This document shows, one piece after another, positions 52,301 to 64,000 of a stretch of 64,000 bases of DNA. Position 1 is the stretch's first letter, and each line of letters begins with the position of its first letter. Source of the DNA: Trichoplax sp. H2 (taxonomy: Eukaryota); assembly GCA_003344405.1 (NCBI GenBank), contig NOWV01000103.1, positions 62,001 through 126,000 of the forward strand. Reading direction: 5' to 3'. Made by a program: the position numbers and the translations under genes. The notes beneath the pieces are model-generated. The model made no database searches. It saw only the letters and a list, made by a program, of their open reading frames with translations, and was not told the DNA's origin.

Positions 52301-52734
52301 ATTTTATGAAAATACAATACCCATATTGCTATAAATGTATTTACGATACGGTTGACAGGTGGAATAATTTTAAAGATATTTACATTGCTGCCTAACTGGT
52401 ACCTGATTAAGCGAACGGGTCGCTGTAAATTCAGAATGTCAAAACATACATTACATCCAGAATTCACCTTTTCTTACTATTAACGATTACTTATTTTTAC
52501 ACCAGTTCTAGTCCATTTGATAATAAATGCTTTAACATTAATTACTGCTATTTAAAATAATGTGATCACAATTTTTAAGATATGCACTTATACAAATCGT
52601 GTAAAAGTATCTAACACTCGTATATTTCGATGTAAAATAGCATAACAAGAAATCATGCAAACTATGCATAACGAATGATTCTTTAACAAACGCTGATGTT
52701 ATAATAATATCTGACTTTAAAATAATTGTTTATC

Positions 52735-52755
52735 ATATATATATATATATATATG
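52735..52755. repeat. (TA)n microsatellite in the probable 3' UTR of the Mint gene
   Basis: atatatatatatatatatat run. Confidence 0.8.
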
Positions 52756-53219
52756 TTATATGTACGAGTATGTATGTGCGTATGCATATATAATATATCA
52801 TCATTGTACAATATAAAGCAATTGATTAAATTTTAGAACAGAGTAGTTATGACGTTCAACGTAAACAACTACAAACAATAATGAAGAATTCTAATACAAT
52901 TCCAGAAAACATACTCTTGGAACGGCCATTATATTGCTATATTAATCAGCTATCCAATAACCCGCAATCATTCTTAAAGATACAAGATAGTGATGTATAT
53001 CGCTAACTGGCTTAAAAATATCATAAAACTGTAATGAACATTAACACAAAGCAAAGCGAAAGATTTGCAAATCAAATTATAACAATAGAAATTCACCATT
53101 AAGTTATTACAATTTACAAAATTTCACTTGCTTATTTGATGCATCGCATACTTCTGCATTTCAATAATACAATATTAGATACAATCTTCAATTCTTGACA
53201 TAATAAATGAAATTTCAAT

Positions 53220-56200
53220 TTAGATGTATTCTGGCGTTTCTTGGTCTGTCATCAGTTTATACATACTAGCAGGCATGGTTCTCAAACGTAACTAAAAAAA
53301 AATTATTATTTTAATGTAAGTATTGCCAATTGTGAAGTTACATAAAATTAAAGAGAAAGCTGTACAGAGGTAAATACTGACATCTCCGGTGGATATCGTT
53401 AGGAGTTCGACAACTTGGTCATGCGTAGCCTTTACAATATTATGTCTATCGATATCTAAAATATAATGGCCAACACGTACACCACCTCGTTCGGCAATAC
53501 CTCCACGAATAACACTGCAAATCTACAAGTAAAAAATATATTCGTAATAGGTTTAAAAGGATAGCTACATTTAGTAAGTCAATCAATAAAGCTAAACATT
53601 CATACCAAACCATCTTGCACACTAAATCCCCATACATATTTCGTATCTGGTCTTCTTAGTACTATTTCTGTTACCGGTGACATGGATACAATTTCTAAAG
53701 TCACTTCTGTTGCCTGGCAGCTTTCCTACAATTTGATCCATATCGGATATTTTCAATAATGGGTTAACATTTTCATAACTTTATTCAGATTGACGTCGAT
53801 TACTGTACCTTAATAATAGCTTTGCACTTATCGATTGGTAAGGCGACAAGGCTAATACCATTCACAAACATTAAGTGGTCGCCAACGTTTAACTGACCAC
53901 CTAAGGCAGCGGGGCCGAATTTATTGATATGAGCAATCACGGGGGCTGGTATTAATGATCCCCAGCCGGAAGGTATTATCATTATTCCTAGATTTTCATT
54001 TCGCTTTTTTCGTACTACAACCTATAATTCACATCCAAAATAAAATTAAAAAAATTAACAACTACTGTTATTTGTACGGTAGAAATTTTACTTGTCCCAA
54101 TAAAGGTAAAACTATTTGACTGATTACAATTCCTAACTACATGTACTTGCTTGCCATTATAGTAAAAATAGCAATTCAATGATTGTACCTTTTTCTTGCA
54201 ATTAATATCTGACAGTCGACCAAGTTCCTCTACTGAGGTTCGTTGACAACTTAAGACATTCTCGTATTCAACTTTTTCTAATTCTTCCTGACTCCAGCCC
54301 TTCTCTTTAACAAATTCTTCATAAGCAATGTCAAAGGCCTGTCCAATAGATTTGGCGATTGACCGTGCCTTCAATAGGATCAAAATTGATTTATTTTTTA
54401 ATATCCTGAGTAAAACTCAAAATAAATAACCATATCTACAAAAATTTAAGAACGAACAAACTAAACATACATATTGAGAACTAAAAACGTGGCTGACTAC
54501 TTGAGAACCCTTCGGATCTTCGTCAAAATCAGAAGTGGAAACTTCAATCATGGCTTTTCCACTCTTTTCTTTCACAAAGTCCTCTTCTTTCCGCTTGTGA
54601 CGTCTGGTCATCAATACCACAATATTTCCAATATCGGCGATGTACGAAACGTTATGCAAGAGAGTTTCAACGAGCAATTTCTACATTTTGGTGAATATCA
54701 ATAGGGCATTTAAGTAACAATAGATTGCATGGCTAAATTAACGAAATTTTTTACCATAATACTGACAACGACTATAAAATAGAATTCAAATTTCATCAAA
54801 CAGAGAAAATTTTTACCTTATCTGATGACTGTAAAACGATTATGCTACGGACAGATATAACAATTTCGACATCCATACAACTCTGAAAGTCCGAAGACGT
54901 TACCTATGTAAATGTCATAAAGGAAAATGAACCAGAAATTTATAGATGAGAGATCATAATCACTCAACGACAAATACAATACTACTTAAGTATTACTACC
55001 TTTATCCTCTCAATAGCTTCTTTGGCTAAATTTATTCGAGTCTTTGCTGACCATTCCACATCGTTGACTAGACGTGTTGTCCCTAGATACTGGGTATACA
55101 AATTCCAAAACATGATAAGAACTATAAAATATTTACACAGTTCTTTCAATGAGTTAGCGTCTGATATGTTGACGATAAAGACTTTACTTAAACCTACTAT
55201 CACGTCCCTCGAGACATTTATTTATTTGAAAAGCTCATACTTGGTCACTCCACATGCTTAGCTATAAAAATTATTTGTGCGATCTTACTAAATGTACTTA
55301 CATCAGCATCGTATACGACTCCTCTAGTTAAATCAGCAGGATGATGCCTACCAGTGTCACGACCTATGTTCAACCCAAGCATATTGAAGTTTTTTTTAGG
55401 AGGAACATGTAACTTTTTTCTATTTACAACTGTTACATTTTAATACGTGCATATAGCAACAACAAGAACAGTAATGAAGTAAGAAGTACTACATTCTACA
55501 ATGAAGACTTTGCATCTAGCAAACCTTTTAATTCGTCTTGTTTCAACGGCTCGATCTTCTACCAGTAAAAAAAATACAAATACCTTTACGATTAGAGTAA
55601 TAAAATATAATTTAATCTAACTAAAAACTAACATCACTAAGGACGCCATAGGGATCTGAATTTTGTGCGTCATACGACGCTTCCTCTCTTTCTGCCACAG
55701 TTCTATCTAATTGTTCTTTTGGTGGTTGTTCACTATCTGCTGACCTAACTTTCGTTCCAGTTTCTGATTTTACTCTACGAATACCAGGTCTACTGGTGTT
55801 GAGATCTTTTGTCGAACTTGAAGACTTTGGAAGTCTTCGTCTACGCCAAATACTGTCGGGGTCATCAGGTTCCTGATCTAGGTCCTCCATTGATTCTGGT
55901 TAATAAAATTTCCAAGACGTATATTTTTATTTTTATGTGTATTTGAGCTTTGGTAATGATTCAAGTAATAACTAATAGAGATCAATGACATTACCTTCAT
56001 TGGAGTTGGTTTCTACTTTTGATGATGTAACTCCGTCCTTTTTCATTTGTAGTTTCATCAATTCTATTTTACTTAATCCTTTTGTGTTATTATTAGGTCT
56101 TGAAGAAACTAAGCTTTCTTTGTTATCATGGTTAGGATTATCGTTATGTTCTTCATCTGCGCAAGGCTGTTCGGAACCATCAAATTCGCCACTATCCCAC

Positions 56201-59200
56201 TCTAATCCACTATCCATCACTCTTTCATTACTTGAATGATTTAACATCTGTGTGGCTAACTTTGGATGATTTTCTGCTGTTTTCTGATTTAATACAGAAG
56301 AAGGTAGTTCAGCGATTGGCTCTACGCTAACGTCAAGTGATGATTCCGCTGGAGGTTGTGTTGTAATAACTTTAGCTGGTTGCTTTCCTTTTTTATTCGC
56401 TTTAGGGTTGTCCTATTTTAAAAACATGGCACACTGCACTTGAGAAATACAATACTGTAGTGACAATCTACCACAACGGCCAATCATACCTTTCCTGTGC
56501 TTTCATTTCTTTTCTTTTCATTTAATAGCCGCAACTCCTTTTCTTTAAGGTCTGCAGCTTTTTGCTTGATTAGTTGCGATTCTGCATCTAAACACTCTTT
56601 CCTTATCTTTGTACTATCACGTAACTTTAACGATGAATTAAAGTAGGTAATTGCCAAACTAAGTTGATTCAATTTTTTATACGAGTAGCCCAGGCGAGAA
56701 TATGTACGAGCTATTAACTTTGTATCAGCATCTTGTTTCGATCCCAACTCTAAGGCATATTCGGCATCTTTGATACTTCTTTTATATTCCTCCAAATTGT
56801 AGTAAGTGGCTGAAAGGTGAAGCATTGCAAGCGTGAATTACATTTTTAGAAAAGAACTAGTGTATGTACAATATAAGATAATCTCCTTTCTTATAACAAA
56901 TTGTACAATGCTAATAAATCATACCCTTACCTGCTCTGTTAATATAAAAGATAATATTAGAAGGAACAAGCTTAATTGCTTTATTATAGTGCTCTAAAGC
57001 TTCATCGAAATCATTTTTTCTAAAAGCGATATTTCCTTTTTCCTTTTCTTCCGCAGCTAAAGTAGCATTATCTATAATAGGTATATCAACTAATAAAAGA
57101 CAAGGCATCATCATATCAGATGAAAGCAACTGCATAAGACTCAAAAATATAAAGTTACACTAGATTAAAATGAAGGATAACTAGGTTTTTATACACAAAC
57201 AGAATAAATCATATAAATAATATGCAGTTGCTAGATATATAAACGCACGGTTTAAGGTGGAATTATTTTACTCAGCAAACTTACAGTACCATCTACAGAG
57301 ATATGATCTTTATAGTAATTTAGATTATGAAATGATGTAATCTTGAAAGGGAAATACTATATACTGTACCATGCTCGTCAATTTTTGGTGTGTGGTTGAT
57401 ATCATTCTCACTGTTCTCTTCCTTTATTGCATCTGACGTCTCTTTTTCTGCTAGTGAATTACTACTTTCCATTACAGTAGGACTTTTCGATTCCAATATT
57501 TCATTGTCTAAAAAGTATTACAAACATTTAATCAGCACAGCAACGAGACAACTGTATACCATACTATTAATTAATAACTGATCTAGTTGGAAGCGTTACA
57601 TTCGTTCAATTTCTGTAACGATTTGAATTAACGATTCCTAGAAGTTTCGAAATTTTGACCATTATAGTAAGAGTAAAAATCTAATTTCTTAACGCTGCGA
57701 ATTGTATGGATACAGGAATAGTTGCATTTATACAAAAGTTTAAAAGCTTGAGCTGTCGCTTATCATGCGAATTATTAATATTAATACAGTCTGAGATATA
57801 TTAACGTTGGCACAAAATACTACACATTTGTCAATTCTATGCTTAGATTGCAGAGGAAAACAATAAAGGTGATTATTTGGCGTTACGTGTAATGTAATAT
57901 ACTGCATCTAAATCAAGTTTAAATAAATAATTCATCATTGTAACAGTTCACTAAAGTCTAATATTATCCCATGAGATGGTCTTCACAGCGTAAACTGATT
58001 TCAATAGATTTCAGTTCATTAGCAAATTTTGGTAAATAAAATTATGATTAACAATACCTACTGTGCAGAAACTATATAAATGTAATATTATATTTATTAT
58101 ATCATCGTATAATTAGTTGAAAAACTGTCATAAGAGTAAGTTCTTGGATAAAAAAAATGTGTATGCTTTAACTATAAGCCAGTAAGATACAAATATACGG
58201 AGAAGGGACTATACGCGTATTTTATCATTTAAAACTATCATTTCTTGAACTACTAACAGTGATTCTACAAATCACTTTGAAATTTTTAACCACTGCGACA
58301 CTATCTACAGTTAAAATATGTCCAGTAAAGGCAGTAGTAGAACATGTGCAGACGCACTTTAGTTATACAAGTACATCGCAAACGTGGTCACATATAGTAT
58401 TAGGTCCTTCCCATTTATGATGCAGAACTAATCGCCGCTACCCTATTGCACTTCATACTAAAAGATGATATCCATAAATATTGTAAATAGTTTATCAAGC
58501 AAAACTGAAGGTAAAATCTTTGTTGTTGTACAAATAATTTTCTTTAGAGTTAAAGAATATAAATAAAAAGGAAACTGTAACGGAATATAGAATTTACAAT
58601 GTCCATAACGAATATTTGATACATTTCTTATAAAGCAGATTACTAGAGATATTATACGCGTATAGTCTAAGAAATGAGGTACAGTCTATGTTTAATAGAA
58701 CTAATTAATCATTCCATGTATATAGAAAGCACTATTTAAAGGAGTAACAATTGTGGTATTGTCAATAGTTCGCTATGTATGTGTATGAAAATGATTATGC
58801 TGTCATTGCCATATAGGTAAGAGAAAAAGCTGTATGATTATTGCCATGCTGTATCAGGTAGGATGATACTTTATCTACTCGATATTGTAGAATTAATTGT
58901 ACTGTATATGTTATATATATATATATCGAATTTTCTCACCTTGCAGAAGACCGTTAACTTGATTAGAATCCAGAATTTCACTTTGATTGTTTTCCACATC
59001 TGCAGTTCCGTTGGTATGACTAACAACTTTAGTATCAATCGCATCATAGTGGACAAGTGGAATTTGATCCTGAGATAATTCTTCTCCTTGACTACTATCA
59101 ACATAGACCAAATCATATGGAACAATAGGAGGAGATGTAAGGCTATTTTCTTGGCCTTTTACGCGAGTTTCAACAACTAAAACACCCAGTAGAGTAAGTA

Positions 59201-61139
59201 GTGCAGTTAGTCGATATAATAATAATCAGAATCATTCTTTTTGAATCCCATTTTAATAATTAAGAAATGAAAGAAAATACACAAAAGATATGAATTAGAT
59301 CATTCCTGGTGCTTTCTTGGCACGAATCGCACGATAGAGCAATAAAGTGTAGCTACGTTGACGTTATATTTACTCAGTCACGAGATCGCAATAAACCAGT
59401 ACTACCAAAGACATCTGTCTATGTTGACATCACAGCCAAGGGGATATTGATGAGGAAGAGAGAAAATCTTCAACTTAGCATGTATTATCCAGATTGGATT
59501 GGATTGGAAGACATGGATAGTACTTAGCTATTAGTACAGTATATTAACGATAAGTTTTAATCTTTGATAGATACATGGTAAACAATCGAAGAATTGAATG
59601 TTAGGGATTAAAGGCCGAAAAAGGATAGCAACTATACAGTACAGTACTATGGCTGACCGTACCATAGCAAATAACTGTTTAATGCAGCACATTGATATCT
59701 TAATGATGGAATTAGTAAGTGGATAATAGTATAGAGTAATGGAATACAGTATCATCTACTGCGAGTGTAGAAAAAAAAAACCATTGTATAATCTTATTTT
59801 CAATAGTGAAGCCTTGTGAATTATTTGTTTCATCGATTGCTCCCCTTTGGCCATTCTTTAGCAGATGGAATGAATACATGGCTATCATGGTAGAAATCAC
59901 AAGACAATGTGAATTATCTAGCCAAGAATACAAATTAGTGTATACCGTATGTAGTCGAAATTTGATTTATTTATTACTGGTATAATTAATTTATTGCTAG
60001 CAAGTCCTTCAGTAACTGGTCGATCACCCCTCGCAAAATAAATTCTCGATTACAATTAGAATGTTGGATGTAATCGAAGTATACTAGTCTTCTCTCTACA
60101 CATATAAACGTAAAAACATGCATTGCTCAGCAGCGTCGAGATTGACCTATTATTTCTTCATAGAAGATGATGAAAATAGTATCAACGATTTCAATAATAT
60201 ACTAATCACACTGCCCAAATGTGCTATAATATCCATTGGATTCCAGTCGAACTGAATAAGCCACATGAGTACCAACCATAAAAGAAAAATTCGATGATAT
60301 AGCGTTACAATCGAGAGGATACTTGTCTTCCATACGTCTTATTATGGTGAAATAGAAAGTATGGAAATGGTCGTCTTGCGCCATTCAAAAGTTGCCCCAT
60401 ACGTACGGTACAGTACCCCAAGGGCTAAAGACGATTCTACAGTATCATGCGATAACTACCGATGAGAACATCATGTACTGTGGACGAGAGCACAGATCCA
60501 TTTGGATGTCATGACAAAATGGATCAACGAGGTAAAATGTGAAAACTAGGGGCCATTATTAGGATCTATGTTGATCCAGTCTACTTAGGTAGTTTGACAG
60601 TGTATCGTGTACTCAAGCTATTTTATCCCTTATTGATTAATTGAATTGAAGGAAAAAAGAGCAGTGGTGATAAAATGACTGAGATGAAATGGAACAAGAC
60701 CACACTCGATGTAATAGAGATAAAGTAGAAAAGCAATCCGATGATGGATCAAGGCTTGGTTAACATTAAACTGATTACCTGTACCACTTTCATCCACTGT
60801 ATAACTAACCAACGCAATACTATCTGGATCGCCAGTATCATCATCATTTTTGGGTTCATGATCCACTGGGCTAGGAGGAAGATCGTGATTGGATTGTTGA
60901 TTTTCGTCCAGATCATCACCCTTTTCACTGAGATTCAATTCAACTTGGCATGATTGCTCTTCAACACTCTCTTGTGCCTTATTGTCGTCATGGAGTGAAT
61001 TTTCATGAATACCATCCTGTTCTTCAACGATATCATCACCAGTTAGACTAGCACTACCTAAGGCAATATCTTCTTCAGAGACAGCGATGCTATCCAAGCT
61101 GGAATATCTTTCGCTGCTAGTGCTATTGATATCCGCCAT
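53220..61139 (-). CDS. APBA: X11/Mint/LIN-10 family adaptor (acidic N-terminus, TPR insert, PTB, PDZ, PDZ), about 17 exons
   Basis: PTB: DLTRGVVYDAD|YLGTT and LHNVSYIADIGNIVVLM...IAKSIGQAFDIAYEEF. PDZ1: LGIMIIPSGWGSLIP...GQLNVGDHLMFVNGISLV. PDZ2: WGFSVQDG...RGGIAERGGVRVGH. Tail TMPASMYKLMTDQETPEYI* matches the Mint PxYI tail. Splice phases are consistent from the ATG at 61139 through to the PTB domain. Confidence 0.9.
56490..57089 (-). other. Three-repeat TPR domain resembling Hop/STIP1 TPR2A, encoded by two exons of the Mint gene
   Basis: EKEKGNIAFRKNDFDEALEHYNKA...YINRA|ATYYNLEEY...LIARTYSRLGYSY...AITYFNSSL aligns by eye with Hop TPR2A [24 protein letters not shown]...ITNQAAVYF...IAKAYARIGNSY...AIHFYNKSL. 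Confidence 0.85.
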
Positions 61140-61299
61140 AGTCTTCTATCGATTGGCTTGGTGAAATTTTTCCAAGACGTCCAACACGTCTACTTCAATG
61201 GAAGCCAGTCAGAGTGGCCGAGCTTGTCATCACTCACTAGTAGTGTCACTACACATGGTAACCGTGGTCCTTTACTACGTACTGGCCACGCAGTCATAC

Positions 61300-62290
61300 T
61301 GTACGTTATGACAGTGTACAGTGCAGTCAGAGATTTGTACAGGTATCAAGATACTGTAGAGTAGTAGGGTTCTGTACCAGTGTCTACTGTACACTGTACA
61401 CTGTAGAGTACAGTCCTGGACCACTACAAGACCGGAACGCGACCGGTCGTCTCTAGTGGTACATGAGTGTACACTGTACTGTACAGTACGGTTCTGTACT
61501 GGTGTCTACAGTAGTGTGTACACTGTACAGTACTGTAGAGTCATGGACCACTACAGTACTGTACAAGACCGGAACGTGATCGGTCGTACTGTACTGTACA
61601 GTGATTGATTGATTACTCCAGCAATTTCACCCACTTTTAACTGGAGATAACCAGCGGACAAAAGGCTCTTTTGTCTTCCACTGGTCATACAGTACGTACT
61701 GTACAGTACAGTACAGTACAGCAACACCAGCAGTAACAGACTGGCAACTTTTGGATCGTGTCGCATACCCAATTTTATGACCATGTTGATGAACAAGGAC
61801 TAGTCTCTGATATTGGCCGCAATGCCGCTCACCACATCTACCCTCCAACAGATGCAACTTACAGGACAGTAGGTGCCTACCGGTCTATGCAGTATACAGT
61901 ACTGTAGATTAGATTCAAAAATAAATCAAAAATGCTACACAGATACTGTACAAAGTGGAGCGGATCGACACGTACACTGTACAGTATACTGAGTGCAGTC
62001 TTGCTCAAAAATGATGTCATTCCGACTGCTCACCAAGTGGTGTGTAGCCGGTCTTACAGTGTACAGTGTACAGTACGCTATACTGTAGCGCATCACCAAA
62101 GAAAAATCCTGATTGTGCGCAATGATGCTGTCCAACCATCCTTCCCACGCAGACTCAGTACTGGCCTACCTCAACCGGCTCTACTGTCTTTGATTCAAAC
62201 TAAGCAAACATGAACAAACTTGTTTATGTTTTACTCTTCTCTAGTATTGTACTGCACGTTTCTACTGTACCGATACACAGTACAGTACAC
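61300..62290. promoter_or_regulatory. Bidirectional promoter region between Mint and the SBNO-like gene, very TACAG/CTGTA-rich
   Basis: Head-to-head ATGs at 61139 (-) and 62458 (+), with dozens of tacag/ctgta copies in between. Confidence 0.7.
61364..61587. repeat. Imperfect two-copy direct repeat of ~90-100 bp within the bidirectional promoter
   Basis: ggttctgtac..gtgtctac...tggaccactaca...agaccggaacg.ga.cggtcgt occurs at ~61364-61450 and ~61486-61587. Confidence 0.75.
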
Positions 62291-62457
62291 ACTATAGGTG
62301 AAAATCAAACGTTGATCTGGACCGTAAATCAATCATGCCCTGGCCCACGAAATGTTTGCTAATAGCTTGTTGGCGCCAAAGTTAACTTTAAAAATAAAGT
62401 TAAATTATTAATTAATTGCAGTTGTACCCTGGTAAAAAATCAACTACTTGCCTACTT

Positions 62458-64000
62458 ATGGCTCATCATGATGAAGAGATCAATCGAATTGCCGATGAAG
62501 ATTATGGCCAAGAGAAAAATAGAGAAGTTTTCTTGCCCTATCGATGCCACTCCTTAGGTGATATTACTAACTACAAAAGTCATCCGGGAAATGTTGTCGA
62601 AGCTGCGTCTTTAGCTGCTCAAATCCTGCCGCCTACTAACTATCCGCTAAAAGATGCCTTACCACCACATTTAATACTTGATTGTAAATTAAGTGATTTG
62701 CAATTAGAAGGTATCTTACATGCATGCCAACGCCATCAGATGATCTTGCCGAAGGGTGCTAGAGCTGGATTCTATCTTGGAGATGCTGCTGGAGTAGGCA
62801 AAGGAAGACAAATTGCTGGTATCATTATTAATAATTATGTCCGTGGCCGACGAAAACATTTATGGTTTAGCACATCTCACGATTTAAGGATAGATGCTGA
62901 AAGAGATTTAAAAGATATAAATTGCTTTATTAAGGTCATTGATGGTTGTCAAGAGTTAGATCGTGAGACCAGAGTTGCAGGCATGTCTCCACAAGTCAAA
63001 GATGGCATTCTATTTAATACTTATGCTACGTTGATATCATCAGGTCAACGTGGTTTCAATCCAACCCATACACGAGGTAGTCGAATACAACAAATTCTGG
63101 ATTGGTGTGGCGATAATTTTAATGGTTGCTTAATCTTTGATGAGTGCCATAAAGCAAAACAATTTATACCCGGCAATGAAGCTGCCAGTACCAAAGCTGC
63201 AGTTGCTGCAATTGCCTTACAAAGGCAATTGCCTAAGGCTCGCGTTGTCTATTGCAGCGCTACCGGTGTCACTAATGTTAAGAATATGGCATTTATGGAA
63301 AGACTTGGACTATGGGGTGATAATACAGCCTTTAAAAATGTTGAAAATTTTATCCAAGCCATGACCACACGTGGTCTAGGCGCATCAGAAATGTTAGCCA
63401 TGGAAATGAAAGCTGCAGGAATGTATGTTTCAAGAGGTCTAAGCTTTGAATCTGCTGAATTTCACACTGTTGAAATTAATTTAACCGATGAACAAATTAG
63501 AGTGTATAATTTATCTGCTCGAGTCTGGCAACAATTAGCTGAAGCAATTAAAAAAGCAATCAGCCACACTAAAAGTTCCGCAAGTCGTATATGGACTGTT
63601 TATTGGAGTTGCCATCAACGATTTTTTAAACAACTTTGTATGTCTTTAAAAGTACCAGCCATTGTACGGGAAGCCAAAGCTGCTCTGGATGAAGGATATT
63701 GTGTTGTTATCGGTTTGCAAACCACTGGAGAAGCTAGCTTAGACAATGAAATTACTCGCCAAGGGAACAACACACATGGCTATATCTCCACTGCGAAGGA
63801 AATTTTAGTACGGTTTATTTTACAACATTTTCCAATCGAAGAGAAAACATCCAAAGGCACTAAAATTAATGCATGGTGTAAAAATGCTGCCGATGCCTTA
63901 CTACAATTCATCGATAATATTAATTTACCGAATTGCTCCTTAGATGAGTTAATTCAACAATTGGGTGGTACTAATTGTGTCGCTGAAATGACTGGACGCC
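62458..64000 (+). CDS. SBNO: Strawberry notch-like SF2 helicase-family protein, 3' truncated by the window
   Basis: Reading frame of over 510 codons open to the window end, not in the ORF track because it has no stop. Motifs: HPGNVVEAASLA, LSDLQLEG, GFYLGDAAGVGKGRQIAG (Walker A), LIFDECHKAK (Walker B), RVVYCSATG, YWSCHQRFFKQL, CVVIGLQTTGE, LDELIQQLGG..VAEMTGR. An in-frame acceptor at 62421 could add upstream exons. Confidence 0.92.
   Translation, partial: MAHHDEEINRIADEDYGQEKNREVFLPYRCHSLGDITNYKSHPGNVVEAASLAAQILPPTNYPLKDALPPHLILDCKLSDLQLEGILHACQRHQMILPKGARAGFYLGDAAGVGKGRQIAGIIINNYVRGRRKHLWFSTSHDLRIDAERDLKDINCFIKVIDGCQELDRETRVAGMSPQVKDGILFNTYATLISSGQRGFNPTHTRGSRIQQILDWCGDNFNGCLIFDECHKAKQFIPGNEAASTKAAVAAIALQRQLPKARVVYCSATGVTNVKNMAFMERLGLWGDNTAFKNVENFIQAMTTRGLGASEMLAMEMKAAGMYVSRGLSFESAEFHTVEINLTDEQIRVYNLSARVWQQLAEAIKKAISHTKSSASRIWTVYWSCHQRFFKQLCMSLKVPAIVREAKAALDEGYCVVIGLQTTGEASLDNEITRQGNNTHGYISTAKEILVRFILQHFPIEEKTSKGTKINAWCKNAADALLQFIDNINLPNCSLDELIQQLGGTNCVAEMTGR

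What the first reader, a model, noticed from the sequence alone, without database searches (positions are those of the whole stretch)
56490..57089. Mint/X11 adaptor carries an in-frame Hop/STIP1 TPR2A-like domain
Seen: two exons encoding three TPRs splice in frame (phase 1 in, phase 0 out) between acidic N-terminal exons and the exons leading to PTB-PDZ-PDZ, so the pair cannot be skipped alone without a frameshift. Carboxylate-clamp positions are kept: K and N in EKEKGN, N in YINRA, and R...R in IARTYSR (Hop K301/R305). Known: characterised Mint/LIN-10 proteins have no TPR domain, and Hop TPR2A binds the Hsp90 MEEVD tail. Inference: a lineage-specific exon capture that could couple Hsp90/Hsp70, or another acidic C-terminus, to a vesicle-trafficking scaffold.
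Basis: partly seen in the sequence, partly recalled or inferred. Interest (0 to 1): 0.75.

Follow-up and report, generated by a model that had tools for sequence, protein, structure and literature searches.

The report
Placozoan Mint scaffold with Hop-like TPR
The Trichoplax version of the vesicle-trafficking adaptor Mint/LIN-10 really does carry a chaperone-docking type TPR domain inside the same messenger RNA, but this architecture is already annotated and has been noted in print, so only its close likeness to the Hsp90-binding domain of Hop is new detail.

Summary
On the minus strand, exons 57089-56931 and 56809-56490 (GT-AG, phase 1 in, phase 0 out, 479 nt) encode a three-repeat TPR domain inside a 17-exon, 1034-aa gene. 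Its product matches 'Protein lin-10 [Trichoplax sp. H2]' (RDD40395.1) letter for letter.

RNA contigs from three runs of one study splice TPR exon B to the next exon. One 3261-nt contig fits the exon model to the base, from exon 1 to the 3' UTR. The 2008 T. adhaerens model of a stand-alone TPR gene is therefore wrong.

The domain matches Hop/STI1 TPR2A better than TPR1, TPR2B or any other solved natural TPR family. The dicarboxylate clamp is kept as K261, N265, N296, R333 and R337.

The novelty is small. [quoted passage not shown] It does not mention Hop, STIP1 or the clamp. Binding of Hsp90/Hsp70 EEVD tails is a reasonable inference (about 0.5) and is untested.

The parts
60779..61139 (-). 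Exon 1 (ATG at 61139; aa 1-120, acidic, fast-evolving)
   Evidence: This is the only ATG that gives an open 1034-aa frame. The joint 59176>60779 is seen in RNA runs.
58940..59176 (-). Exon 2 (aa 122-199, acidic)
   Evidence: Joints 57507>58940 and 59176>60779 are GT..AG.
57370..57507 (-). Exon 3 (138 nt, aa 201-245; ends in phase 1)
   Evidence: Donor CATG|GTACAG. The joint 57507>58940 has 'side 138'.
56931..57089 (-). Exon 4 = TPR exon A (159 nt, aa 247-298: TPR motif 1 and start of motif 2; clamp K261, N265, N296)
   Evidence: Splice sites. Pfam TPR_1 at 3.7e-9. It aligns to human STIP1 220-266. Contig depth and length arithmetic place it in the same RNA contig.
56490..56809 (-). Exon 5 = TPR exon B (320 nt, aa 300-405: TPR motifs 2-3, capping helix and charged helical extension; clamp R333, R337)
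   Evidence: Splice sites. It aligns to STIP1 269-369. RNA contig pieces cover 56489-56809, joined to 56411.
55995..56412 (-). Exon 6 (aa 406-544, no family match; linker)
   Evidence: The joint 56411>56489 is in X4, X8 and X12. Only a sub-threshold Pfam DEPP match at E 0.017 was found.
55633..55895 (-). Exon 7 (aa 546-632, linker)
   Evidence: RNA contig pieces cover 55633-55895.
55525..55558 (-). Exon 8 (34-nt micro-exon)
   Evidence: GT-AG sites and an open frame. It is needed for the 877-nt contig length between 53724 and 55633.
55302..55363 (-). Exon 9 (62 nt, start of PTB)
   Evidence: GT-AG sites and an open frame, plus the contig length arithmetic.
55000..55089 (-). Exon 10 (PTB)
   Evidence: The PID match spans aa 661-814.
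54817..54903 (-). Exon 11 (PTB)
   Evidence: Joint 54680>54817; exon model.
54471..54680 (-). Exon 12 (PTB)
   Evidence: Joints. It is 100% identical to TRIADDRAFT_23199.
54189..54368 (-). Exon 13 (end of PTB)
   Evidence: Joints. PID match.
53809..54021 (-). Exon 14 (PDZ-1)
   Evidence: Pfam PDZ at 2.1e-8. Joints.
53606..53725 (-). Exon 15 (end of PDZ-1 / start of PDZ-2)
   Evidence: Joints.
53382..53522 (-). Exon 16 (PDZ-2)
   Evidence: Pfam PDZ at 2.6e-8. Joints.
53220..53291 (-). Exon 17 coding part (ends ..PEYI, stop at 53222-53220). The 3' UTR runs on to at least 52500.
   Evidence: The X4 and X8 RNA contigs cover 52500-53291.

Best explanation
This is the single Mint/X11/LIN-10 gene of Trichoplax. 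It has 17 exons and encodes 1034 aa. Exons 4 and 5 encode a Hop/STI1 TPR2A-type domain of three TPR motifs and a capping helix (aa ~250-385). The domain sits between an acidic, fast-evolving N-terminus and a long linker that leads to PTB-PDZ-PDZ.

Shown: the TPR exons are spliced into the same mRNA as the PTB and PDZ exons. The domain is most like STI1 TPR2A. Its dicarboxylate clamp is intact.

Inferred: the module descends from an STI1 TPR2A-like domain that entered the Mint gene in the placozoan lineage. It works as a C-terminal peptide socket that docks an acidic ...D-COOH tail. The most likely ligands are the EEVD tails of cytosolic Hsp90 or Hsp70. This would bring a chaperone to the cargo held by the PTB and PDZ domains. 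Two residues of the pocket for the Hsp90 methionine differ (Y236>F, E271>N), so the preference upstream of EEVD may not be that of Hop.
For: Gene and transcript:
- All 16 introns are GT-AG, and the frame is open from ATG 61139 to the stop at 53222.
- The product has 0 differences in 1034 aa from RDD40395.1.
- The nine printed minus-strand gene joints are each present in all three RNA runs X4, X8 and X12 and in 0 contigs of the DNA-like run X1. They include TPR exon B to exon 6. All nine resolve to GT..AG.
- X12 contig 9 (3261 nt) has 877 nt between 53724 and 55633, which equals 1+213+180+210+87+90+62+34. It has 562 nt beyond 56809, which equals 159+138+237+28. These are exactly the modelled exons, including TPR exon A.
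- A T. adhaerens transcriptome record used in PMC11405698 also ends at I1034.

Domain identity:
- Against human STIP1, the domain scores 34.1 bits on TPR1, 78.7 on TPR2A (ungapped, 131 residues) and 49.0 on TPR2B.
- In two full-length STI1 representatives the scores are TPR1 36.9 and 38.5, TPR2A 78.0 and 88.8, and TPR2B 25.9 and 23.2 bits.
- Isolated TPR2A constructs score 81-92 bits, against 65.5 bits for the next natural family, SPAG1.
- In the tree, the domain falls on the TPR2A side of a branch with 92/90 support.
- The AF2 model has pLDDT 90.5 and seven helices. The six best Foldseek PDB hits are all Hop/STI1 TPR2A, at rmsd 1.3-1.9 A for the five single-domain matches and 5.2 A for the two-domain TPR2AB entry 3uq3_A.

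Clamp:
- K229, N233, N264 and R305 are identical, and K301 is R here. R stands at that column in 3 of 5 STI1 representatives. Y248 and A267 are kept.

Constraint:
- Among the strain differences listed, 3 of 3 in the TPR exons and 5 of 5 in PTB-PDZ are synonymous. 8 of 8 in aa 1-245 change the residue.
Against: - No binding was tested and no ligand was identified.
- Three ligand-contact positions differ from human Hop: Y236>F, E271>N and N308>Y. N308 also varies among STI1 representatives.
- The two joints that flank exon A were not among the 15 joints printed (69 more were not shown). Their presence rests on contig length and depth arithmetic.
- All three RNA runs come from one study and are assembled contigs, not reads.
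- One low-depth unspliced contig (X4 record 14, depth 8.6) covers the intron upstream of exon A.
- The AF2 alignment consisted of STI1 relatives, so the model leans towards them.
- The tree held only STI1 domains and one unnamed TPR-WW protein, with no other clamp-TPR families.
- The variant count is small: 40 of 68 differences were listed.
- Origin from the placozoan STIP1 gene, and the intron-position test, could not be examined because no genome is held.
Confidence: 0.55

Rival explanations
1. The TPR domain is a working C-terminal peptide socket, but its ligand is not a chaperone. It binds the acidic tail of a membrane or trafficking protein. This would add a third kind of tail-reading module to the two PDZ domains of the scaffold.
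For: The clamp is intact, but both residues of the Hop pocket for the Hsp90 methionine are changed (Y236>F, E271>N), and so is N308>Y. The authors of PMC11405698 raise the general idea that TPR domains, like PDZ domains, read C-terminal ligands. The branch of the Mint TPR is longer (0.9) than those of the STI1 TPR2A domains (0.26-0.66).
Against: The EEVD tails of Hsp70 and Hsp90 are the ligands of the solved clamp-TPR peptide complexes among the top matches: Hop, RPAP3 and Sgt2. No alternative ligand is known or was found here.
Confidence: 0.27
2. The TPR domain no longer binds peptides. It serves as a structural spacer, a dimerisation element through its long terminal helix, or an intramolecular regulator of the Mint scaffold.
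For: The capping helix runs on as one long helix to residue ~164 of the 167-aa model, with pLDDT falling at the end. The N-terminus of Mint is highly variable across animals.
Against: All five clamp positions are kept within the range seen in true STI1 domains, and Y248 and A267 are kept too. 3 of 3 listed strain differences in the TPR exons are synonymous. A relative's fragment is 46 of 56 identical over the last TPR helix and capping helix.
Confidence: 0.13
3. The two TPR exons are a separate small gene nested in a Mint intron, as modelled in 2008 (TRIADDRAFT_23350, 167 aa).
For: In-frame ATGs precede the exon A acceptor, and a stop follows one codon after the exon B donor if it is read through. 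The 2008 annotation made this model. One low-depth unspliced contig spans the intron upstream of exon A.
Against: RNA contigs in three runs splice exon B to exon 6. One contig runs from exon 1 to the 3' UTR with a length equal to the full exon model. The H2 annotation and a T. adhaerens transcriptome record both give 1034 aa. The phases fit on both sides.
Confidence: 0.03

Closest known systems
Placozoan Mint as annotated (RDD40395.1, 'Protein lin-10 [Trichoplax sp. H2]') and as described in PMC11405698 (Sci Rep 2024; passages read)
   Same: It is the same protein, letter for letter. [quoted passage not shown] It remarks that some TPR domains read C-terminal ligands, citing the Hop structure paper.
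   Different: The paper's main text does not contain the words Hop or STIP1 (0 occurrences each). It does not assign the domain to TPR2A, does not examine clamp residues, and tests only the PDZ region. Its supplements were not read.
Bilaterian Mint1-3 / X11 / LIN-10 (APBA1-3)
   Same: The PTB-PDZ-PDZ core is shared: E 2.3e-83 to APBA2 over 306 of 309 residues. The C-terminal tail ends in ..YI.
   Different: No TPR domain is reported in any other phylum examined in PMC11405698. According to that paper, the Munc18- and CASK-binding motifs of the bilaterian N-terminus were not detected in non-bilaterian Mints.
Hop/STI1 TPR2A domain (e.g. 1elr, 2nc9, 4gcn, 7kw7_E)
   Same: It has three TPR motifs and a capping helix. 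The alignment over 131 residues is ungapped and includes the longer loop before the third motif, which consensus TPRs lack. Identity is 37-41%. The clamp is kept. Foldseek TM-score (normalised to the target) is 0.85-0.93.
   Different: It is a lone domain in a scaffold protein. There is no TPR1, TPR2B or DP domain. The methionine-pocket residues are changed. Hsp90 binding is untested.
Other proteins that graft one clamp-type TPR domain onto another module (PP5, SGT, RPAP3/SPAG1 and STUB1 from the PDB hit lists; Swa2/auxilin from PMC5480384)
   Same: The design logic is the same: a single EEVD-reading TPR domain recruits Hsp70 or Hsp90 to an enzyme or adaptor. These families appear as weaker matches.
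   Different: Each scores below TPR2A: SPAG1 65.5, RPAP3 53.9, Sgt2 52.0 and PP5 45.3 bits, against 81-92. None is joined to PTB and PDZ domains.

Membership tests
Mint/X11/LIN-10 (APBA) adaptors | [quoted passage not shown] | tested here: met
   PID at aa 661-814 (67.4 bits), PDZ at 855-936, and PDZ_6 at 965-1006 on the 1034-aa protein.
Mint/X11/LIN-10 (APBA) adaptors | Closest solved relatives are APBA proteins over the whole PTB-PDZ-PDZ region | tested here: met
   3suz_A (APBA2) at E 2.3e-83 over query 4-309. The 11 best hits are all APBA1-3/X11, and syntenin follows at 4e-9.
Mint/X11/LIN-10 (APBA) adaptors | C-terminal PDZ-1-binding auto-inhibitory tail | tested here: met
   The protein ends ..PEYI. 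PMC11405698 reports deep conservation of this tail. This is a sequence-level check only.
Mint/X11/LIN-10 (APBA) adaptors | N-terminal Munc18- and CASK-interaction motifs (Mint1-type) | not tested
   I did not search for them. PMC11405698 states that its alignments failed to find them in non-bilaterian Mints. They are not universal in the family.
Hop/STI1 TPR2A-type dicarboxylate-clamp TPR domain | Three TPR motifs plus a seventh capping helix | tested here: met
   Pfam TPR matches span aa 262-362. The AF2 model has seven helices at pLDDT 90.5.
Hop/STI1 TPR2A-type dicarboxylate-clamp TPR domain | Five clamp residues (human K229, N233, N264, K301, R305; list taken from a passage of bioRxiv 10.64898/2026.06.05.730378) | tested here: met
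   The residues here are K261, N265, N296, R333 and R337. Four are identical. The fifth is K>R, and R occurs at that column in 3 of 5 STI1 representatives.
Hop/STI1 TPR2A-type dicarboxylate-clamp TPR domain | Better match to TPR2A than to TPR1, TPR2B or other clamp-TPR families | tested here: met
   78.7 bits against 34.1 and 49.0 within human STIP1, and 81-92 bits against 65.5 for SPAG1. See also domain scores, the tree and the top six Foldseek hits.
Hop/STI1 TPR2A-type dicarboxylate-clamp TPR domain | Residues of the pocket for the Hsp90 methionine (Y236, E271, per PMC5480384) | tested here: not met
   They are F268 and N303 here. All five STI1 representatives keep Y and E.
Hop/STI1 TPR2A-type dicarboxylate-clamp TPR domain | Binds the MEEVD/EEVD C-terminal peptide | not testable with these tools
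Hop/STI1 co-chaperone (whole protein) | TPR1-DP1-TPR2A-TPR2B-DP2 architecture | tested here: not met
   There is only one TPR domain and no STI1-HOP_DP match on the 1034-aa protein. It is not a Hop orthologue.

The most novel reading that the evidence does not exclude
Placozoan Mint is a chaperone-docking scaffold. Its Hop TPR2A-derived module holds the EEVD tail of Hsp90 or Hsp70, and so brings a chaperone directly to the membrane cargo bound by the PTB and PDZ domains in secretory (peptidergic) cells. This would stand in for the Munc18/CASK-binding N-terminus of bilaterian Mints. It would be a direct, lineage-specific link between the Hsp70/Hsp90 machinery and an exocytosis scaffold in an animal without synapses.
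Probability: 0.3. Interest if true: 0.6.

Novelty: already known. Interest (0 to 1): 0.33.

Why it matters
Mint proteins organise vesicle exocytosis and cargo trafficking, and their N-termini differ greatly between animal phyla. If the placozoan N-terminus carries a working Hsp90/Hsp70 docking domain, domain shuffling has rewired an ancient pre-synaptic scaffold in an early-branching animal. That would give a simple, testable hypothesis for a domain that the literature has only listed. For annotation, the result shows that three 2008 T. adhaerens gene models (TRIADDRAFT_54671, _23350 and _23199) are pieces of one gene.

Tried and rejected
- A word-index search for longer proteins holding TPR exon B found nothing among 245 candidates. 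This turned out to be uninformative. The full-length H2 protein is hidden as a member of a cluster whose representative is the 309-aa fragment.
- The same index returned only the window's own protein for a highly conserved PTB exon, 1 hit among 14 candidates. It is therefore a poor test of how widespread the architecture is.
- The full HMMER scan with exon B was dominated by multi-repeat TPR proteins: 511 hits at E<=0.001, of which 150 were listed. I scanned only 10 of those 150 in Pfam, choosing the ones with long or single-stretch matches. 0 of 10 had PID or PDZ, and 4 of 10 had the STI1 DP domain.
- The ESM Atlas look-up of the whole protein gave no usable hit.
- No whole genome is held for the window. 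The placozoan STIP1 gene, its intron positions and other TPR2A-like genes could therefore not be examined.
- Earlier notes of this scan: none for this genome.
- A fragment from a relative (P0155, 89 aa) aligns only to the end of exon B, 46 of 56 identical. Its remaining 33 residues do not align to exon 6, so it says nothing about splicing in that relative.
- Cluster look-ups of six STI1-like representatives gave no organism names, so the source lineage of the domain could not be narrowed.
- Parts of the stretch without RNA contig cover (introns, 57510-58845, 59180-59513) were not used as evidence.
Full report
**What is in the sequence**

The finding lies on the minus strand. Two exons, 57089..56931 (159 nt) and 56809..56490 (320 nt), have canonical AG acceptors and GT donors. 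The upstream exon (57507..57370) ends after the first base of a codon. Exon A starts with the remaining two bases and itself ends in phase 1. Exon B ends on a codon boundary, and the next exon (from 56412) starts in phase 0. Each exon translation hits Pfam TPR families above their curated cut-offs: TPR_1 at 36.5 and 34.9 bits, against a cut-off of 27.8.

**The whole gene**

I used the splice joints seen in RNA and GT-AG sites for four small exons not printed there. This gives a 17-exon model that is open from ATG 61139 to a stop at 53222-53220 and encodes 1034 aa.

- A search with one PTB exon returned TRIADDRAFT_23199 of Trichoplax adhaerens at 100% identity.
- Its cluster also holds a 1034-aa 'Protein lin-10 [Trichoplax sp. 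H2]', RDD40395.1. My model differs from it at 0 of 1034 positions.
- The 2008 T. adhaerens annotation cut the same gene into three models. These are a 225-aa N-terminal piece, a 167-aa piece that is exactly the two TPR exons (model aa 246-405), and the 309-aa PTB-PDZ-PDZ piece.
- On the full protein, Pfam finds TPR repeats (aa 262-362), PID (661-814) and two PDZ domains (855-936, 965-1006).
- The C-terminal 309 aa match human APBA2 at E 2.3e-83.
- The protein ends ..PEYI.
- Residues 1-245 are 24% Asp+Glu.

**One gene or two?**

In-frame ATGs lie just upstream of the exon A acceptor, and a stop follows one codon after the exon B donor if it is read through. A nested mini-gene was therefore a formal possibility, and it is what the 2008 model assumed. 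I laid three runs on record as RNA (X4, X8, X12; one study) and one run that behaves as DNA (X1) on 52500-62500.

- X1 covers introns and exons evenly and shows none of the gene's joints.
- Nine gene joints were printed, and each is present in all three RNA runs. All nine resolve to GT..AG introns on the minus strand. One of them joins TPR exon B to exon 6 (56411>56489).
- The joints on either side of exon A were not among the 15 printed (69 more were not shown). The numbers still leave no room for doubt:
  - X12 contig 9 (3261 nt, depth 52.6) has 56809 at its position 2699. The remaining 562 nt equal 159+138+237+28, that is exon A, exon 3, exon 2 and the 28-nt 'side' of the joint into exon 1.
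  - The depth in bin 56842-57175 is 25.0, which equals 52.6 x 159/334.
  - The 877 nt between 53724 and 55633 equal the modelled exons to the base.
- PMC11405698 cloned its T. adhaerens Mint fragment as 'K760 to I1034' of a transcriptome record. That again implies a 1034-aa product (passage read).
- A single low-depth unspliced contig (X4, depth 8.6) spans the intron upstream of exon A. I read it as pre-mRNA or DNA carry-over.

Caveat: these are assembled contigs from one study, not long reads.

**What kind of TPR domain**

- Exon B alone finds only STI-1/Hop TPR2A chains as its eight best solved matches.
- The best natural match of exon A is human STIP1 220-266.
- The whole domain (stored protein P0152) scores 34.1 bits on TPR1, 78.7 on TPR2A and 49.0 on TPR2B of human STIP1. 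The TPR2A alignment is ungapped over 131 residues (219-349). It includes the longer loop before the third motif, which consensus TPR proteins align to with a 7-residue gap.
- Isolated TPR2A constructs score 81-92 bits. The next natural families score less: SPAG1 65.5, RPAP3 53.9, Sgt2 52.0, TOM70 46.6 and PP5 45.3.
- In two full-length STI1 representatives from the 1.84-billion-protein scan, TPR2A again wins: 78.0 and 88.8 bits, against 36.9 and 38.5 for TPR1 and 25.9 and 23.2 for TPR2B.
- In a 13-row maximum-likelihood tree of these domains, the Mint TPR sits on the TPR2A side of a branch with 92/90 support. Its place inside that side is unresolved and its branch is long, at 0.9. The tree held no other clamp-TPR families.
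- An AlphaFold2 model (pLDDT 90.5) has seven helices. The last one runs on through the charged stretch at the end of exon B.
- The six best Foldseek PDB matches are all Hop/STI1 TPR2A. The five single-domain matches have TM-scores (normalised to the target) of 0.85-0.93 (0.38 for the full-length Hop chain 7kw7_E) and rmsd 1.3-1.9 A. The two-domain TPR2AB entry 3uq3_A has 0.48 and 5.2 A. The input alignment was made of STI1 relatives, so this is not fully independent.

**The ligand-binding residues**

The clamp of human TPR2A is K229, N233, N264, K301 and R305 (passage of bioRxiv 10.64898/2026.06.05.730378). Further contacts are Y248, A267, Q298, N308, Y236 and E271 (passages and table of PMC5480384).

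| Human Hop TPR2A | Mint TPR | Five STI1 representatives |
|---|---|---|
| K229 | K261 | kept |
| N233 | N265 | kept |
| N264 | N296 | kept |
| K301 | R333 | R in 3 of 5 |
| R305 | R337 | kept |
| Y248 | Y280 | kept |
| A267 | A299 | kept |
| Q298 | L330 | L or I in 5 of 5 |
| Y236 | F268 | Y in 5 of 5 |
| E271 | N303 | E in 5 of 5 |
| N308 | Y340 | variable |

These come from the ungapped alignment and the column table. The socket for a free acidic C-terminus is therefore intact and within the natural range of true STI1 domains. The small pocket that holds the Hsp90 methionine is altered.

**Constraint**

Of the strain differences printed (40 of 68), 3 of 3 in the TPR exons and 5 of 5 in the PTB-PDZ exons are synonymous. 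The linker exon 6 has 2 synonymous and 1 replacement. All 8 in aa 1-245 change the residue. The numbers are small, but the TPR domain behaves like the conserved core and not like the fast-evolving N-terminus. A fragment from a related organism is 46 of 56 identical over the last TPR helix and capping helix.

**How it most likely works**

Shown: one mRNA, one protein, and a folded TPR2A-type domain with an intact clamp, placed between an acidic disordered N-terminus and a long linker to PTB-PDZ-PDZ.

Inferred: the domain docks a protein that ends in an acidic ...D-COOH tail. In eukaryotic cytosol the abundant ligands of such clamps are the EEVD tails of Hsp90 and Hsp70 (established knowledge of Hop, PP5, SGT, CHIP and RPAP3). 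My best reading, at about 0.55, is therefore that placozoan Mint recruits one of these chaperones to PTB- and PDZ-bound cargo.

- A non-chaperone acidic tail is the main rival (0.27). It is favoured by the changed methionine pocket.
- A non-binding structural or regulatory role is less likely (0.13).
- The separate-gene reading is nearly excluded (0.03).

Descent from an STI1 TPR2A domain is well supported.

**Comparison with what is known, and novelty**

The architecture is not new.

- RDD40395.1 (2018 annotation) is the full protein.
[quoted passage not shown] It notes that some TPR domains recognise C-terminal ligands, citing the Hop TPR structure paper (passages read, supplements not read).
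- That paper's main text contains neither 'Hop' nor 'STIP1'.
- A search for placozoa, tetratricopeptide, Mint and Hsp90 returned 61 papers holding at least three of the four terms. Among the 10 best-ranked listed, it was the only one on this subject.
- Within the searched library, the assignment to TPR2A, the residue-level clamp analysis and the Hsp90/Hsp70 hypothesis are not in print. They are refinements of a known observation.
- Outside placozoans I found no TPR+PID+PDZ protein: 0 of 52 hits and 0 of 10 scanned of 150 listed. These searches are weak for animal proteomes.

**Verdict**

The function is untested. The finding is already in the public record, so I rate it as already known, with modest residual interest.

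Noticed in passing
window 52900-61139 (minus strand): The 2008 T. adhaerens annotation splits this one gene into three models: TRIADDRAFT_54671 (225 aa), TRIADDRAFT_23350 (167 aa, the TPR exons alone) and TRIADDRAFT_23199 (309 aa, partial). The H2 annotation has it whole.
   Followed up: yes
window 61380-62090: The intergenic stretch between Mint and its neighbour is packed with direct and inverted copies of a GTACTGTACAGTAC-like motif, including a (TACAG)7 run at 61688-61721. In the DNA-like run X1 its contig depth is about 3000 against about 85 elsewhere. The RNA runs show many contigs that join it to unrelated flanks. It looks like a high-copy dispersed repeat.
   Followed up: partly
window 62416-63999 (plus strand): A 528-aa open frame that runs off the window end encodes a Strawberry-notch-type helicase N-terminus (Pfam AAA_34 at E 2.9e-123, then the start of Helicase_C_4). 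It lies head to head with Mint, about 1.3 kb from its start codon.
   Followed up: partly
window 57370-61139 (exons 1-3, aa 1-245): All 8 listed strain differences in the acidic N-terminal exons change the residue. All 8 in the TPR and PTB-PDZ exons are silent. The N-terminus seems to evolve nearly freely, even among close strains.
   Followed up: partly
protein P0013 (423 aa, unnamed ENA contig): This representative protein has two TPR2A-like domains (75.4 and 63.5 bits to the Mint TPR) followed by a WW domain. It groups on the TPR2A side of the tree. This is another case of a Hop TPR2A-type module outside Hop, in an unknown organism.
   Followed up: no
window 55525-55558 and 55302-55363: Two very small exons (34 and 62 nt) precede the PTB domain. 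Neither was printed as a joint. Both are required for the RNA contig length to fit, and both are in the H2 protein.
   Followed up: yes
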